From a virus (lineage: Duplodnaviria; Heunggongvirae; Uroviricota; Caudoviricetes), in the IMG/VR virus record IMGVR_UViG_3300042398_001452: a DNA stretch of 64,000 nucleotides. The stretch is one strand, 5' to 3'. The notes below the pieces were generated by a model, which searched no databases, was not told the origin of the DNA, and saw only the letters and a list, made by a program, of their open reading frames with translations. Every line of letters starts with the position of its first letter. Positions within the stretch are counted from its first letter, which is position 1. The position numbers and the translations under genes were made by a program. This document shows positions 44,249-61,112 of the stretch, in pieces.

Positions 44249-44603
44249 ATGATATTTATCCGAAAATTGTTTTTTTATTCCGATAAAGAGTCGTACATTT
44301 GCTTTGTGAAACATTTCTTTGTTTTCCATATTATTTAGGTTTTAATGGTTTACTCGTAAAAAACCGAGTCTCGAAAGGGCTCGGTTTTTTTGTTGTCCGT
44401 GATTTTGCGGACATCTAAGAAATTCCAAGAAAATCCCCGCGGGATGTCGCTCGGATTCCGATTCGGATCCCGTTCGGACTTGATTCGGAATCGCGGACCC
44501 TGTGGTTCCCCCGGTAGAAAATTCTCTGGGATCGGATTGGATTTTTTTAGAAATCATTTTTTTATTCTATAAGAAATTTCTACATTTGCAAGAAAGGGAT
44601 ATA

Positions 44604-45134
44604 ATGAAAGAAGTAACAAAGACCGCAGCATTAGCAGTTTCAAGAAACATCGCAGATCACTTTTACGAGGGTAACGACGTGAGCAAGCGTATGGGACGCA
44701 TACTTAATATCACAACAGACGTATTGGAAAAGAGTGATGCACGATTTGACCGGATGCGTGAGGATCTTCAGAGTGTATACGAGGACATGTCACGTGTACA
44801 TAATAAATTGTATCAGGATTTAGGAGGACGTATGGGAAGCGGAGAATTCTTCGGAGTGGATATTGAAGATATCGAAGCTAAGACGGACTTCAAGCTTAAA
44901 CAATTGATAGACGGAGTTAGTCCCGATGGATTTATGCAGCTGCAACTTTCACTTGGTGGATTACGAGAGCTCATTGGTAAACTGTCAGGCGGTGCTCCTT
45001 TTAAAACACCCGACTTACTTTTTGCCGAGAGACTTCAGTTTACCCATTGGTTAACGTTCATGAGTGTATACGAGAGTAATCACCGAGACAAGATTTTAAA
45101 AATAATCTCTAAGTACGATCCAAAAGCTTCCTAA
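44604..45134 (+). CDS. Hypothetical helical protein
   Basis: ATG follows promoter 44552-44588; the track start at 44502 runs through the promoter. Confidence 0.6.
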   Translation: MKEVTKTAALAVSRNIADHFYEGNDVSKRMGRILNITTDVLEKSDARFDRMREDLQSVYEDMSRVHNKLYQDLGGRMGSGEFFGVDIEDIEAKTDFKLKQLIDGVSPDGFMQLQLSLGGLRELIGKLSGGAPFKTPDLLFAERLQFTHWLTFMSVYESNHRDKILKIISKYDPKAS

Positions 45135-45199
45135 ATCATTTTTTTAATTAAATAGATTTTTCTACATTTGAGATAACCAACAAAACTAAAACTAATAGA

Positions 45200-45379
45200 A
45201 TGGAAAAGACACCAAAGGAAAACGACAGAAACGACACTCTAGGAGAATTGCTAGTCGGGATGGTAGAATCAGGAGAGCACGGATTAAATGCTGTTGATAT
45301 CCTAGTTTCGTTTATGAATAATCGAATGCTACAAGTAGAGCGTGACGATATTATGGATTTATTAAAGAATGAAGACTAA
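45200..45379 (+). CDS. 59-aa hypothetical protein (not in track)
   Basis: MEKTPKENDRNDTLGELLVGMVES...LLKNED; promoter 45134-45170. Confidence 0.55.
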   Translation: MEKTPKENDRNDTLGELLVGMVESGEHGLNAVDILVSFMNNRMLQVERDDIMDLLKNED

Positions 45380-45391
45380 AAAAGAACGAAC

Positions 45392-46267
45392 ATGCCAAAT
45401 CACATTTCAAACATTTTGACCATTGAGGGCGACGCCAAGAGGGTAGCTCAGATTAAGAGTGATATCATTTCCGTTGACGAGGAAGGGTACATCAGACATA
45501 TCGATTTCGATAAGATTATACCGAGACCGAAGAGTTTGGATATCACTAGCGGCAGCAGTACGAGTAACGGGATTGCTATCTTGAAATATCGTGCAGGTGA
45601 TCCCACAGCGATTAATGGGATAATGGGATATCAATGGGCGACTGAGTTTGCTACGCCAGAGGATTTAATCAATCATATGCTCGAGAAGGGCTCGGCTAAT
45701 CTAGAAGAGGCTCAGAAGGCTTTAGATAACGTGAGATTATACGGACATCAGGATTGGTATTCATGGAGCACGTCCAATTGGGGTACTAAGTGGAACGCAT
45801 ATGACACCAACGACAATGAAGACAACGGAATTTATTTTCAGACGGCTTGGAGTAATCCGTTTCCCGTCATGGAGGCTTTAAGTCGTAAGTATCCGGATGT
45901 TGTATTTCATGTGAGATTTGCCGATGAGGACTTCGGTCATAATGTCGGAGAGTACAGTTTAAAGAACGGAGACACAATCAGCGAGAACATACCAGAGGGT
46001 GGTTCCGAAGAGGCTTATGAGATGGCCGCTGATATCACGGGATATGAAAGTTATCTTACTGACCGTGTGTATGATATCGAAGCAGAGACTATCGAAGAGC
46101 TTGCAGACTACGAAAAGCAGTATATCAAAGCCGTTTACGATAAGGAAGTCATTGAAGACTTCCCGAGAGTGGTTATCGACTACATGTTGGAGTTAGCTGT
46201 TGCGGATGAGAATTTCGAATTGGCTACTCAGCTAAGAGATATGACCGCATGTAACGACGAAGATTAA
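45392..46267 (+). CDS. DUF1281/YubB ferredoxin-like protein with C-terminal UVR motif
   Basis: MPNH..N.L.I.G, WYSW...NWGTKWNA, FQTAWS; C-term LAVADENFELATQLRD. Confidence 0.7.
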   Translation: MPNHISNILTIEGDAKRVAQIKSDIISVDEEGYIRHIDFDKIIPRPKSLDITSGSSTSNGIAILKYRAGDPTAINGIMGYQWATEFATPEDLINHMLEKGSANLEEAQKALDNVRLYGHQDWYSWSTSNWGTKWNAYDTNDNEDNGIYFQTAWSNPFPVMEALSRKYPDVVFHVRFADEDFGHNVGEYSLKNGDTISENIPEGGSEEAYEMAADITGYESYLTDRVYDIEAETIEELADYEKQYIKAVYDKEVIEDFPRVVIDYMLELAVADENFELATQLRDMTACNDED

Positions 46268-46283
46268 TCTTAAATCTATAAGT

Positions 46284-46562
46284 ATGATAACGGAACTAGA
46301 TAAAGACGTAAGCAGAAGGATTTTAAAGAGCTTGGGTGAACCGGCTACTGTGCTTCACGATAAAATGAAAAGGGGTAATTTCAAATACTCGCTAAAGTGG
46401 TTCGGAGTTAAGGGATGGTGTATAGAGACTGATAACGGACACAGAGCTTACTACAAGATGCGAGATCTCCTTATCACTAACAAATTAATTATAGAAGTTA
46501 TTCCGACAAGTGGATACGGGAACATATCTGGACTTTATCAGCTAAGAGAATTGGCGTATTGA
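46284..46562 (+). CDS. Hypothetical protein
   Basis: 92-aa ORF in operon. Confidence 0.5.
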   Translation: MITELDKDVSRRILKSLGEPATVLHDKMKRGNFKYSLKWFGVKGWCIETDNGHRAYYKMRDLLITNKLIIEVIPTSGYGNISGLYQLRELAY

Positions 46563-46605
46563 TAATCATTTTTTTTAATGGAATTTAATTCCTATATTTA
46601 GGTGA

Positions 46606-59383: not shown

Positions 59384-59394
59384 AAAAAGAACCC

Positions 59395-59721
59395 ATGTTT
59401 ATAGTAATAGATATTCCTATAGCCTTAGTGAAACCGGAGAATAAGGACTACGAGAGAGCACTAGGGCTTGCGTCAGATTATGATGATGCTGTTCCGTCAA
59501 CTCCTAAGGCGATGAAGATGTCAAAGCTAATCAAGGATCCTCTAAAGCTAGTAAGACGATCTAAAGCGGTAGTTGGAGTATGGGGTACCGACGATCACGA
59601 GGGTAAAGCTTTTGACGAGAATGTTTGGTTCCCTTTCAAGAAAGCTTTGACCGATATGGGGTTCACTGAAGACCAAATTCGTGATATAGAAAATTTTGAA
59701 ATAGATGAAGAAAATTTATAG
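59395..59721 (+). CDS. Hypothetical protein
   Basis: 108-aa ORF in operon. Confidence 0.55.
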   Translation: MFIVIDIPIALVKPENKDYERALGLASDYDDAVPSTPKAMKMSKLIKDPLKLVRRSKAVVGVWGTDDHEGKAFDENVWFPFKKALTDMGFTEDQIRDIENFEIDEENL

Positions 59722-59786
59722 AAATCATTTTTTTTATTAAATAGAATTTTCTACTTTAGCAATGTAAACCAATTAAATCTTTCAAA

Positions 59787-60218
59787 ATGTCAAAAGAAAA
59801 AGAAAATCAAACTATCACAGGTGGTCTCGGAATCAAGGAGGAATACTTCGATATCGCAAAAGAACGAGTTCTTAAAAAGCTTAAAGACCTCGACACTGTA
59901 TCCGATGCTTTGGAGTCAGTTGCGGAGGAGGTAAGAGACGAGGAGTTTGGCGATTCAAACTTCAGAGTTTCTGAATACGAGAAAAAACTTATCCTGACCG
60001 GATTCATTATGGGATGCGTTAGCTCAGAAGCTCGCATGTCGCACAAGCTTGACGAGCTTAAAATGGTAATGAGTCTTATGGCGATGAGTAAGGAAATCGG
60101 TAAGGACAAAGAAGGAAATCCAATCTTAGGTGGAATTCTTGACGCTTCGGATATGCCTAAAGAACTTCGAGACCTTTTAGAAAAACTTTCGGGAGAAAAA
60201 GACGAAGATGACGATTAA
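59787..60218 (+). CDS. Hypothetical helical protein
   Basis: Own promoter 59723-59759. Confidence 0.55.
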   Translation: MSKEKENQTITGGLGIKEEYFDIAKERVLKKLKDLDTVSDALESVAEEVRDEEFGDSNFRVSEYEKKLILTGFIMGCVSSEARMSHKLDELKMVMSLMAMSKEIGKDKEGNPILGGILDASDMPKELRDLLEKLSGEKDEDDD

Positions 60219-60326
60219 TTGGTTAACACAGGGGCTCGGGAATTCACTCGAGCCCTTTGAAAAATCAATAAATCATTTTTTTCTTTAGATATAAATCACT
60301 ATATTAGCTTAATAACAAAAAGAGAT

Positions 60327-60575
60327 ATGGCATCAAAAACAAAAATCAGTCACCCAGACCTTAAAAAGAAATTACAAGGTGGATCGCTTAAGTTTTACTT
60401 CCGAAAGGTTGGAGGAGAACTTCGAGAAGCAATCGGTACTTTGGATCTAAACCGAATTCCTAATGCTAACCATCCGAAAGGTGGAAAGGTATCAGGAACA
60501 CAAACTGCCTACTACGACCTTGAAAAGGGAGCTTGGCGAAGTGTTTCGGAAACACAGGAAATCTGGGTAGATTAA
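60327..60575 (+). CDS. SH3-beta-barrel / WYL_2-like protein
   Basis: KFYFRKVGGELREAIGT...YYDLEKGAWRS; promoter 60271-60307. Confidence 0.7.
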   Translation: MASKTKISHPDLKKKLQGGSLKFYFRKVGGELREAIGTLDLNRIPNANHPKGGKVSGTQTAYYDLEKGAWRSVSETQEIWVD

Positions 60576-60765
60576 AAATAAACATCACGCCTCGTGGAAA
60601 CGTCGACTAATCCCTCAGGCTGAATGCTAGAGACCCCGGATCGCTACCGGGGTTTTTCTAAAAAAATTAAAAATGTGGCCAATAAGAATTTGTTAATTGC
60701 CACCAGAGAGATGGCATGACGAGACTGGTATGGCACCAGGATACAAAAACTATAAAAGAAAGAAC

Positions 60766-60939
60766 ATGAAAAAGTACAATTTAATCGTTTCATTTTTAGC
60801 TGTAATCGGAATATCTTTTCTTCTCGGAGAATATCCATTAATTGTAGCTTTGAGTTCTTTCGGTATTGGCCTAGCTTACCGTTTCATTTCCCCCGGAGAA
60901 AATAAACAAGATGAACGATCGAGAGACGTCATAGATTAG
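60766..60939 (+). CDS. Small two-TM protein
   Basis: MKKYNLIVSFLAVIGISFLLG... Confidence 0.5.
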   Translation: MKKYNLIVSFLAVIGISFLLGEYPLIVALSSFGIGLAYRFISPGENKQDERSRDVID

Positions 60940-61112
60940 TACATCTAAAAGGTAGCAACATTTTTAAAGAGGACTTAGTTCCTCTTTTTTTGTGTGGTAA
61001 AACTTAGGCCTCCCTAGTTCTCTGAGGTTCCCCAGAGCAAGAATCTTAGGAATCATTTTTTTCTTTATGTAGAATTTTCTACATTAGCTACGTAACCAAT
61101 AAAAAAAGACTT

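What the first reader, a model, noticed from the sequence alone, without database searches (positions are those of the whole stretch)
44500..61034. Dispersed GC-rich palindrome between terminator and promoter: cassette-junction element
Seen: CTGGGGAACCCCAG at 48317, 55749, 57241; CTGGGGTTCCTCAG at 49881, 58958; CTGAGGAACCCCCG at 53576; CTGAGGTTCCCAG at 61022; CTGTGGTTCCCCCG at 44500. All are intergenic and in the right arm, in both orientations. The usual order is terminator hairpin + TTTTGTG, spacer (CAGCATATG in three), box, then class I promoter. Known analogue: PeSL promoter/stem-loop cassettes that shuffle genes in T4-type phage RB49. Inference: a phage-specific site for a dimeric protein (operator, parS-like or insulator) or a recombination mark defining mobile gene cassettes. 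I do not recognise the sequence as a described motif.
Basis: partly seen in the sequence, partly recalled or inferred. Interest (0 to 1): 0.82.

Follow-up and report, generated by a model that had tools for sequence, protein, structure and literature searches.

The report
Docking palindrome between phage gene cassettes
A short GC-rich mirror-image DNA word sits between the stop signal of one gene unit and the start signal of the next in one arm of an uncultured giant lake-water phage. It behaves like a landing site for a paired DNA-binding protein, a familiar kind of phage control element in a new lineage, and not like a recombination mark or a hairpin.

Summary
Eight copies of CTGRGGWWCCYCAG (10-bp core GRGGWWCCYC) lie at the stated places. 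All are non-coding and all lie in the right arm (7 exact cores against 0.5 expected).

The scan had already found this palindrome on the adjacent DNA of the same genome (e1-1836139, e1-1836138). My independent tests reach the same main verdict.

Five related IMG/VR phage genomes carry 9-19 copies each, confined to the homologous arm. The usual order is a strong terminator ending T6-7GTG, a 27-37 nt spacer, the box, a variable 13-102 nt stretch, then a repeated host-type promoter.

The arms do not co-vary: 43 of 270 arm cells are mismatched and there is a single double change. At orthologous sites, 26 of 28 substitutions avoid the six core G/C positions. This is a protein-read sequence, not a hairpin.

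Indels and replacements between relatives break mainly in the ~40-bp promoter repeat and occasionally in the spacer, not at the box. No ParB, serine or tyrosine recombinase was found in relatives.

Best reading: an operator or boundary site for a dimeric regulator of insulated early transcription units. The reader protein and its effect are not shown. This is a new variant of a known kind (PeSL-like junctions, dispersed phage operators). Interest is moderate.

The parts
44500..44513 (.). Box variant CTGTGGTTCCCCCG (centre TT). No terminator upstream. Lies 36 nt before the promoter at 44550.
48252..48286 (+). Intrinsic terminator (hairpin -18.3 kcal/mol) ending T7GTG, 30 nt before the box
48317..48330 (.). 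Perfect box CTGGGGAACCCCAG. The ortholog in G001 is CTGAGGAACCCCCG.
48354..48392 (+). Repeated early-type promoter (rAATCATTTTTTT, 17 nt, TAcATTwG). Homology with the relative is duplicated here around a 1.4-kb insertion in G001.
49817..49849 (+). Terminator (-16.3 kcal/mol) ending T7GTG, 31 nt before the box
49881..49894 (.). Box CTGGGGTTCCTCAG (centre TT). The ortholog in G001 is CGGGGGCTCCTCAG.
49936..49974 (+). Repeated promoter, 41 nt after the box
53510..53545 (+). Terminator (-18.1 kcal/mol) ending T7GTG, 30 nt before the box. Homology with G001 ends at 53552, inside the spacer. The spacers are unrelated in sequence, yet both are 30 nt long.
53576..53589 (.). Box CTGAGGAACCCCCG (asymmetric arms). 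Followed by the accessory small palindrome AACCTATAGGTT at 53606 and the promoter at 53625-53663.
55690..55717 (+). Terminator (-12.1 kcal/mol) ending T6CGTG, 31 nt before the box
55749..55762 (.). Perfect box. The promoter at 55776-55814 starts 13 nt after it.
57241..57254 (.). Perfect box with no terminator and no repeated promoter. It lies 57 nt downstream of the alternating purine-pyrimidine motif at 57170. The ortholog in G001 has centre AT.
58892..58927 (+). Terminator (-20.0 kcal/mol) ending T6GTG, 30 nt before the box
58958..58971 (.). Box CTGGGGTTCCTCAG. Its centre is flipped relative to the G001 ortholog (AA) while the flanks stay collinear. The promoter is at 58986-59024.
60966..60994 (+). 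Terminator (-8.9 kcal/mol) ending T7GTG, 27 nt before the box
61022..61035 (.). Box CTGAGGTTCCCCAG. Its centre is flipped relative to the G001 ortholog. The promoter is at 61049-61087.
42618..42983 (+). Candidate reader only, not shown. First gene of the arm, 121 aa, with a GcrA/Myb-like HTH and a C-terminal 22 residues invariant in six phages.
43002..43682 (+). Candidate reader only, not shown. 226 aa, with an N-terminal HTH_28 and a second GcrA-like HTH. Conserved next to the first gene in six phages.

Best explanation
The box is the recognition site of a sequence-specific, two-fold symmetric (dimeric) DNA-binding protein. It is one module of a composite boundary between insulated transcription units in the early-type arm of an uncultured freshwater jumbo phage, probably of Bacteroidota.

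Each half-site is [C][T/G]G[A/G]GG. The two halves meet around a W-W centre. The contacts that matter are G3, G5 and G6 and their mirror images.

The site lies about three helical turns (27-37 bp) behind a strong intrinsic terminator, and 13-102 bp ahead of the repeated host-type promoter of the next unit. In the commonest arrangement that puts it roughly 60-65 bp upstream of the start site.

My inference is that the bound protein acts on transcription at these boundaries for the whole arm at once. It would block RNA polymerase that reads through the terminator, and/or switch the next promoter up or down.

The cassettes themselves are shuffled by ordinary homologous recombination in the roughly 40-bp promoter repeats, not at the box.

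Shown: the motif, its position-specific constraint, its placement and its lineage-wide conservation. Inferred: that a protein binds it, that the protein is a dimer, and what it does. Unknown: which protein.
For: 1. Excess and placement. There are 7 exact cores against 0.5 expected, all non-coding and all in the right arm. Relatives have 18/9/9/11/19 sites against 0-2 for the backwards control, confined to the homologous arm. Five non-redundant arms hold 84 core sites. Of these, 56 have a T-run/GTG terminator tail 20-42 nt upstream (52 of them 27-37 nt; median 34, IQR 31-35), and 70 have the promoter within 130 nt. Of 70 hairpin+T5+GTG tails, 52 are followed by a box.

2. The sequence is conserved, not the pairing. 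G3, G5, G6, C9, C10 and C12 are invariant in 45 modules. Pair 2-13 is mismatched in 23 of 45 modules and pair 4-11 in 20 of 45, with a single double change. All five covariation measures are at or below the shuffled values. The commonest variant in three genomes, CTGAGGAACCCCCG, cannot fold (-0.5 kcal/mol).

3. Purifying selection. In 19 orthologous pairs, 26 of 28 differences avoid the six core positions. Flanking spacers diverge freely and are even replaced.

4. Both orientations of the W-W centre occur (AA 28, TT 7, others 10), as expected for a symmetric reader.

5. Lineage specificity. The composite module is absent from one genome of each of about 185,000 prokaryote species, apart from two short contigs that are plainly this kind of phage. 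It is therefore not a host repeat.

6. Two HTH proteins head the arm in all six phages, and box-like sequences lie upstream of their promoter.
Against: - No binding protein is identified or tested. The two HTH candidates are GcrA/Myb-like, a type not known to read palindromes as dimers, and they co-occur with everything else in the arm.
- The invariant bases lie only about 6 bp apart across the dyad.
- Function at the boundary is inferred from position only.
- The spacing to the terminator could partly reflect common descent and concerted evolution of junction modules. Spacers in G002 and G004 resemble each other.
- Helical phasing to the promoter is weak. R is 0.37 at 11 bp with all sites, but p is about 0.08 once the one dominant paralogous class is removed.
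- Seventeen of 24 promoters in this part of the window work without a box, so the box is not needed for promoter or terminator function as such.
Confidence: 0.6

Rival explanations
1. The box has no function of its own. It is a passenger inside a junction module (terminator tail, spacer, box, promoter) that is copied around the arm and homogenised by gene conversion.
For: - Within-genome homogeneity. G001 junctions mostly carry the perfect box with the same flanks. G002 and G004 junctions mostly carry CTGAGGAACCCCCG with similar spacers.
- Contig assemblies break at the promoter repeats, which shows how repetitive the junctions are.
- Cassette exchange happens at these junctions.
Against: - Substitutions at orthologous sites are position-specific. 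Twenty-six of 28 avoid the six core positions, while spacers a few bases away are randomised or replaced.
- The core is retained in a relative whose neighbouring protein is only 51% identical.
- Terminator hairpins next to the boxes are unrelated in sequence, so the modules are not recent copies.
Confidence: 0.12
2. The box is the crossover site of a site-specific recombination system that excises, inserts or inverts gene cassettes (integron attC-like or invertase-site-like, with the central 2 bp giving polarity).
For: - The site is a short palindrome with a non-palindromic 2-bp centre present in both orientations.
- Two orthologous sites have flipped centres between the window and G001.
- One G002/G004 homology block ends exactly at the 3' edge of a box.
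- Cassettes do differ between relatives at these junctions.
Against: - Of 15 gaps between collinear blocks in two genome pairs, most edges lie at the promoter repeat, including promoters without any box. Two lie in the spacer and one at the box edge.
- Insertions are flanked by duplicated promoter sequence (overlaps of 20-40 bp), as expected for homologous exchange.
- No Resolvase, Phage_integrase or ParB_N domain was found in G001, G002 or G004, which are 81%, 47% and 85% complete.
- All genes in the arm keep one orientation, so no inversions are seen.
- Centre variants AT, TA and CT exist as stepwise intermediates.
Confidence: 0.06
3. The box acts as a nucleic-acid hairpin: an RNA 3' stabiliser, a second terminator, an antiterminator (nut-like) hairpin, or a DNA cruciform that absorbs supercoils.
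For: - The perfect form can fold as a 5-bp stem with a 4-nt loop, -6.7 kcal/mol.
- PeSL stem-loops of RB49/phi1 often have polyG followed by polyC and act as terminators.
Against: - There is no compensation. Forty-three of 270 arm cells are mismatched, there is one double change, and the scores are below shuffles.
- Common variants have essentially no folding energy.
- No T-run follows the box.
- The box lies after a strong terminator, so it would rarely be transcribed.
- The loop would differ (GAAC versus GUUC) between orientations.
- The spacer is also not more structured than shuffles (mean z -0.26).
Confidence: 0.04
4. The box is a centromere-like or DNA-organising site (parS/KorB-operator-like) that nucleates a spreading or bridging protein over the early arm, with transcriptional effects secondary.
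For: - There are many near-identical palindromes clustered in one 35-45 kb region.
- Their distance to promoters is variable, as for KorB operators on plasmid RK2 (own knowledge).
Against: - No ParB_N domain in three relatives.
- Placement is tied to terminators and promoters rather than scattered.
- A lytic-type jumbo phage with no sign of plasmid maintenance genes in the searched records.
Confidence: 0.08

Closest known systems
PeSL (promoter-early stem-loop) cassettes of T4-type phages RB49/phi1 (Arbiol et al. 2010, PMC2839356; Comeau et al. 2014, PMC4122927)
   Same: - Repeated, near-identical host-type early promoters combined with terminators flank small, mostly unknown genes in a plastic genome region.
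- Indels and replacements between close relatives break at these repeats (here; for the papers).
- PeSL stem-loops often have polyG followed by polyC.
   Different: - Here the terminator is a separate canonical hairpin plus T-run.
- The G/C palindrome is a third module that is not kept as a hairpin and lies 27-37 nt behind the terminator.
- The promoter is not sigma-70 type. The sigma-70 scan is at chance (47 found against 51 in shuffles). Its -7 element fits the Bacteroidota TAnnTTTG type (own knowledge).
- Mini-circles were not testable.
Stoperators of Cluster A mycobacteriophages (L5, Bxb1; PMC9283540, PMC6550527)
   Same: More than twenty copies of one short protein-binding word sit in short intergenic spaces across a phage genome. 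They are proposed to halt RNA polymerase between genes.
   Different: - Stoperators are asymmetric 13-mers read by a monomer with two domains.
- They work in one orientation only and serve prophage silencing.
- Here the site is symmetric, occurs in both orientations, sits just after intrinsic terminators, and the phage shows no integrase.
Conserved inverted repeats (CIRs) bound by the repressor of Streptomyces phage phiC31, and KorB operators of plasmid RK2
   Same: A dozen or more highly conserved palindromic operators are spread through intergenic regions, at varying distances from promoters, and are read by one global regulator.
   Different: The sequences, hosts and proteins are different. 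Neither is tied to a fixed distance behind terminators. No KorB/ParB-type protein was found here.
REP/BIME extragenic palindromes of enterobacteria (own knowledge)
   Same: Short GC-rich palindromes repeated after the 3' ends of genes.
   Different: REPs are longer, function as RNA and DNA hairpins and gyrase/IHF sites, and are spread by RAYT transposases. The box does not keep pairing and occurs only in this phage lineage.

Membership tests
PeSL-type promoter/terminator shuffling cassette | Many near-identical copies of a host-type early promoter in a plastic region of small genes | tested here: met
   There are 24 copies of the promoter motif between 42.5 and 64 kb on one strand, and 14-49 copies in the arms of relatives. 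The genes are mostly without Pfam hits.
PeSL-type promoter/terminator shuffling cassette | The stem-loop that is part of the motif is a conserved hairpin acting as terminator | tested here: not met
   This applies to the box. It shows no compensatory change and has frequent mismatches, no T-run, and about 0 kcal/mol in common variants. A separate canonical terminator does that job.
PeSL-type promoter/terminator shuffling cassette | Indel and replacement breakpoints between close relatives fall in the motif | tested here: met
   Met for the junction or promoter, not for the box as such. In window versus G001 and G002 versus G004, most block edges lie at the promoter repeat, with overlaps of 20-40 bp.
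PeSL-type promoter/terminator shuffling cassette | Excised mini-circles formed between flanking motifs | not testable with these tools
   Only assembled contigs were available. Joints with short sides at promoter repeats cannot be told from assembly artefacts.
Stoperator-type elongation block | Asymmetric site whose orientation follows the direction of transcription | tested here: not met
   The core is symmetric. The centre is AA in 28, TT in 7 and other in 10 of 45 modules. The window itself has 4 AA and 4 TT.
Stoperator-type elongation block | Many copies in short intergenic spaces, bound by a phage repressor that stops RNA polymerase | tested here: inconclusive
   The copies and their intergenic placement are met. 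Binding and an elongation block are not testable here.
Site-specific recombination site (integron attC, invertase or resolvase site) | A cognate serine or tyrosine recombinase is encoded | tested here: not met
   PF00239 and PF00589 gave no match in G001, G002 or G004, while the controls gave matches. Caveat: the records are 47-85% complete, and the window's own genome could not be searched.
Site-specific recombination site (integron attC, invertase or resolvase site) | Rearrangement joints fall exactly at the site | tested here: not met
   Only one of about 30 block edges coincides with a box edge. The others lie at promoters or in spacers.
parS / ParB-type centromere | A ParB-family protein is encoded | tested here: not met
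   PF02195 gave no match in three relatives.
Structured RNA or cruciform palindrome (REP-like, nut-like, terminator) | Base pairing maintained by compensatory substitutions | tested here: not met
   81.5% of cells are paired against 84.3% in shuffles. There is one double change against 5.4 expected.
Dimeric-regulator operator (generic) | Two-fold symmetric invariant positions, one-sided tolerated changes, conservation at orthologous sites | tested here: met
Dimeric-regulator operator (generic) | A protein that binds it | not testable with these tools
   The candidates at 42618-42983 and 43002-43682 have HTH hits only and no solved relatives by sequence.

The most novel reading that the evidence does not exclude
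A lytic jumbo phage uses a symmetric 'stoperator-like' boundary system. A dimeric protein is parked a fixed ~3 helical turns behind each intrinsic terminator. It catches polymerases that read through and lets the phage shut off, or insulate, some thirty to sixty early transcription units with one factor. The ruler-like spacing to the terminator would then be a functional requirement of a terminator-plus-roadblock device not described before.
Probability: 0.2. Interest if true: 0.65.

Novelty: new variant of a known kind. Interest (0 to 1): 0.45.

Why it matters
Large uncultured phages of freshwater Bacteroidota are almost unstudied at the level of gene control. This arm shows a very regular grammar: terminator, a ruler-like spacer, a palindrome, optional accessory modules, then a promoter. 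That grammar can be read directly from metagenomes.

If the palindrome is the operator of one global factor, it defines a regulon of dozens of early units. It also gives a handle (an 18-bp oligonucleotide) to fish out the regulator.

Gene shuffling uses the promoter repeats, as in T4-type PeSLs. The palindrome is under its own, sequence-specific selection.

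Tried and rejected
- **Spacer hairpin.** Several spacers contain small palindromes (for example around CAGCATATG). Over 45 modules, however, the spacer is not more structured than dinucleotide shuffles (mean z -0.26, p 0.09).
- **Helical phasing of box to promoter.** This is significant only when the dominant 20-24 nt class of paralogous modules is included (R 0.37 at 11 bp). Without it, p is about 0.08-0.19. I do not rely on it.
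- **Read laying on four runs.** Only contigs were available. Contigs end at, and 'joints' lie in, the promoter repeats with short sides. This cannot distinguish real rearrangements from assembly breaks. The RNA run only showed fragments of a related phage within genes. No read-end information was available.
- **Megablast of the arm against GenBank phages.** No match. By protein there are only distant hits.
- **The search for related loci with the 226-aa HTH protein.** It found nothing. The orthologs were found by local tblastn instead.
- **PDB sequence searches with both HTH proteins.** Nothing informative.
- **Pattern hits L003, L004, L010 and L011.** These were chance matches in unrelated DNA.
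- **Sigma-70 promoter scan.** At chance level.
- **ECF-type -35 (GGAAC) reading of the box.** Rejected: no conserved -10 follows, and half of the sites in the window are in the other orientation.
- **Methyltransferase or restriction motif.** Rejected: the word is absent from coding DNA and is tied to junctions.

Full report
**What is there**

With up to three mismatches to the perfect 14-mer there are 16 strand-hits against 1.3 expected, and none of 100 shuffles reaches that number. The 10-bp core GRGGWWCCYC occurs seven times against 0.51 expected, only at these places. The site at 44500 is a one-mismatch variant. Nothing comparable lies in the left 42 kb.

Reading the flanks shows the following.
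- Six sites follow a strong intrinsic terminator. Hairpins are -9 to -20 kcal/mol, with an A-rich 5' flank and a T6-7 run that ends in GTG.
- After the terminator come a 27-31 nt spacer, the box, and 13-41 nt later the repeated promoter rAATCATTTTTTT-17 nt-TAcATTwG.
- The site at 44500 has no terminator. The site at 57241 has neither a terminator nor this promoter.

**The promoter context**

The region 42.5-64 kb holds 24 copies of that promoter on the + strand.
- Seven have a box upstream.
- Five follow a plain terminator whose T-run abuts the promoter.
- Twelve follow a stop codon directly, or have no terminator.

So the box is not needed for a promoter or a terminator as such. It marks the 'extended' kind of junction. 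A sigma-70 consensus scan is at chance. The -7 element fits the TAnnTTTG type of Bacteroidota (own knowledge), so a Bacteroidota host is likely but not shown.

**What the genome is**

The window has no near relative in GenBank phages. By protein there are only distant matches: T4-type topoisomerase II at 29%, and a MoxR-type ATPase at about 40% to a Bacteroides phage. It is held by many lake-water metagenomes.

A composite pattern (terminator tail, gap, box) found related IMG/VR contigs of 86-248 kb. One of them, G001, is collinear with the window at about 75-88% DNA identity.

**Conservation in relatives**

| Record | Box sites | Backwards control |
|---|---|---|
| G001 | 18 | 0-2 |
| G002 | 9 | 0-2 |
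| G003 (near-identical to part of G001) | 9 | 0-2 |
| G004 | 11 | 0-2 |
| G006 | 19 | 0 |
| G005 | 0 | 1 |

- G005 ends 5 kb into the arm, which explains its zero count.
- In every record with sites, they are confined to one 15-45 kb arm that starts just after two conserved HTH genes.
- The neighbouring HTH protein of G006 is only 51% identical to the window's.
- The module is absent from one genome of each of about 185,000 prokaryote species. The only exception is two short contigs binned into a 'Chlamydiales' MAG, which carry 7 and 11 copies of the phage promoter and are clearly phage DNA.

So this is a lineage-specific phage element, not a host repeat.

**Anatomy across 84 core sites in five arms**
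- 56 sites have the T-run/GTG tail 20-42 nt upstream (median 34, IQR 31-35).
- There are two length classes, 29-31 and 34-37 nt.
- 70 sites have the promoter within 130 nt, at 13-102 nt (IQR 21-45), with a sharp mode at 15 nt in the window and G001.
- Conversely, 52 of 70 hairpin+T-run+GTG tails are followed by a box, and several of the rest by a one-base-longer variant. The true exceptions are compact junctions where the promoter starts right after GTG.
- At 53576 the spacer has been replaced by unrelated sequence relative to G001, yet both spacers are 30 nt long.

The spacing is thus tight on the terminator side and loose on the promoter side. An 11-bp periodicity toward the promoter is significant only if the dominant paralogous class is counted. 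I treat the 'helical phasing' noted earlier in the scan as weak.

**Hairpin or protein site**

In 45 aligned modules, G3, G5, G6, C9, C10 and C12 never vary. Pair 2-13 is mismatched in 23 modules and pair 4-11 in 20, and only one module has a change on both sides. All five covariation measures are at or below their shuffled means.

The variant CTGAGGAACCCCCG dominates in three genomes and has two mismatched arm pairs and no folding energy. The spacer is not more structured than shuffles. No T-run follows the box, and it lies behind a strong terminator.

In 19 orthologous pairs (window-G001, G002-G004), 26 of 28 differences avoid the six core positions, while nearby spacer bases change freely.

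This is the signature of a sequence read by a two-fold symmetric protein, with half-site [C][T/G]G[A/G]GG. It is not the signature of a hairpin. It agrees with the earlier follow-up on the neighbouring window (e1-1836139).

**Recombination mark?**

Window versus G001 gives eight gaps between collinear blocks, and G002 versus G004 gives seven.
- The edges lie overwhelmingly at the promoter repeat.
- They often show a 20-40 bp overlap, meaning the promoter is duplicated around the inserted cassette.
- They include promoters that have no box (45184, 54066, 56472).
- Two edges fall in the spacer between terminator and box, and one falls at the 3' edge of a box.
- Four of the eight window gaps are at junctions with a box, against 7 of 24 junctions overall. 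That is not a convincing enrichment.
- No Resolvase, Phage_integrase or ParB_N domain is found in G001, G002 or G004, with the caveat that these records are 47-85% complete.

So cassettes do shuffle here, in the manner described for PeSLs: homologous exchange between repeated promoter/terminator motifs. The 14-bp box is not the crossover point.

One curiosity remains. At 58958 and 61022 the centre is TT in the window but AA in G001, with collinear flanks. This is either a small inversion by template switching or two steps through the AT/TA/CT centres that also occur.

**Who reads it**

Within the window, the only recognisable DNA-binding proteins of the arm are its first two genes.
- The first is 121 aa, with a GcrA/Myb-like HTH and a C-terminal 22 residues identical in all six phages.
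- The second is 226 aa, with two HTH units.
- Box-like sequences lie upstream of their promoter in the window (42281, 42452) and in relatives, which would fit autoregulation.

This is a lead only. These genes co-occur with everything in the arm. GcrA-type domains are not known as palindrome-reading dimers. The very close spacing of the invariant bases (about 6 bp across the dyad) may point to another fold.

**Verdict**

The 'dimeric protein site' reading is supported, and the 'recombination mark' reading is not.

The most likely mechanism is an operator or boundary site of one global regulator of insulated early units. It sits about three turns behind terminators and upstream of the next promoter. 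Whether it blocks read-through, represses or activates is open.

It is a new variant of known kinds: PeSL-like junctions, plus dispersed phage operators such as stoperators or phiC31 CIRs (own knowledge). The same motif was already reported by this scan on the adjacent DNA of the same genome.

Noticed in passing
window 41600-42550: About 1 kb of non-coding junction lies between the minus-strand left arm and the plus-strand right arm. It has TCGCCCCGATT repeats, CTTGGA/CTGGGA repeats, TATAGTATAG-type repeats and two box-like sequences (42281 CAGGGGGACCCCAC; 42452 CGGGAACCCCG). Relatives have a box-like site about 250 bp upstream of the HTH gene too (L036 9768, L038 9728, L039 9751). It may be an origin or a master control region.
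   Followed up: partly
window 42618-42983 and orthologs in L036-L040: The last 22 residues of the 121-aa HTH protein (ARxIARANGKRITMAMFFVEDL) are identical in six phages whose HTH regions have diverged to 51% identity. This suggests a conserved partner, for example a host sigma factor or polymerase as for GcrA.
   Followed up: partly
window 53606-53617; G001 arm 33128 and 39173; G004 arm 16301 and 21821; L040 20171: A second small module, AACCTATAGGTT followed by a T-rich run, is inserted between the box and the promoter at some junctions in four genomes. It is either a mini-terminator or another protein site.
   Followed up: partly
window 57170-57182 (also 42100 region); G001 arm 23417 and 29619; G004 arm 13202, 20645 and 23738; G002 arm 14152: An alternating purine-pyrimidine motif, GCGTATACGTRCG, is preceded by a G-rich/C-rich stretch and lies next to some boxes and promoters.
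   Followed up: partly
all arms, e.g. window 48277-48286, 58919-58927: Terminators of this phage lineage end in T6-7 followed by GTG, even at compact junctions where the promoter starts immediately (TTTTTTGTGGAATCATTTTT). The first 10 nt of the spacer are loosely conserved (nGCTAAGGTTT). This is unexplained.
   Followed up: partly
L041, L042 (JBEIFG010000127.1, JBEIFG010000090.1): Two short contigs of a MAG labelled Chlamydiales carry 7 and 11 copies of the phage promoter and 2-3 boxes. They are most likely phage contigs mis-binned into the MAG.
   Followed up: partly
window 25237 (minus strand): The left arm has variants of the same promoter on the minus strand, and a T7GTG terminator, but no box. 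The box is specific to the right arm.
   Followed up: no
window 60327-60575: A small WYL_2 (Sm-like SH3) protein lies among the arm's unknown genes (Pfam E 1.7e-14). Earlier notes describe a paralogous family of small basic SH3-like proteins further along the arm.
   Followed up: no
window 63487-63999 and 61113-61736 versus G001 arm 19101-19641 and 25228-25656: Homologs of these two genes sit behind different boxes in G001 than in the window. These are direct examples of cassettes that have moved or been duplicated between junctions.
   Followed up: partly
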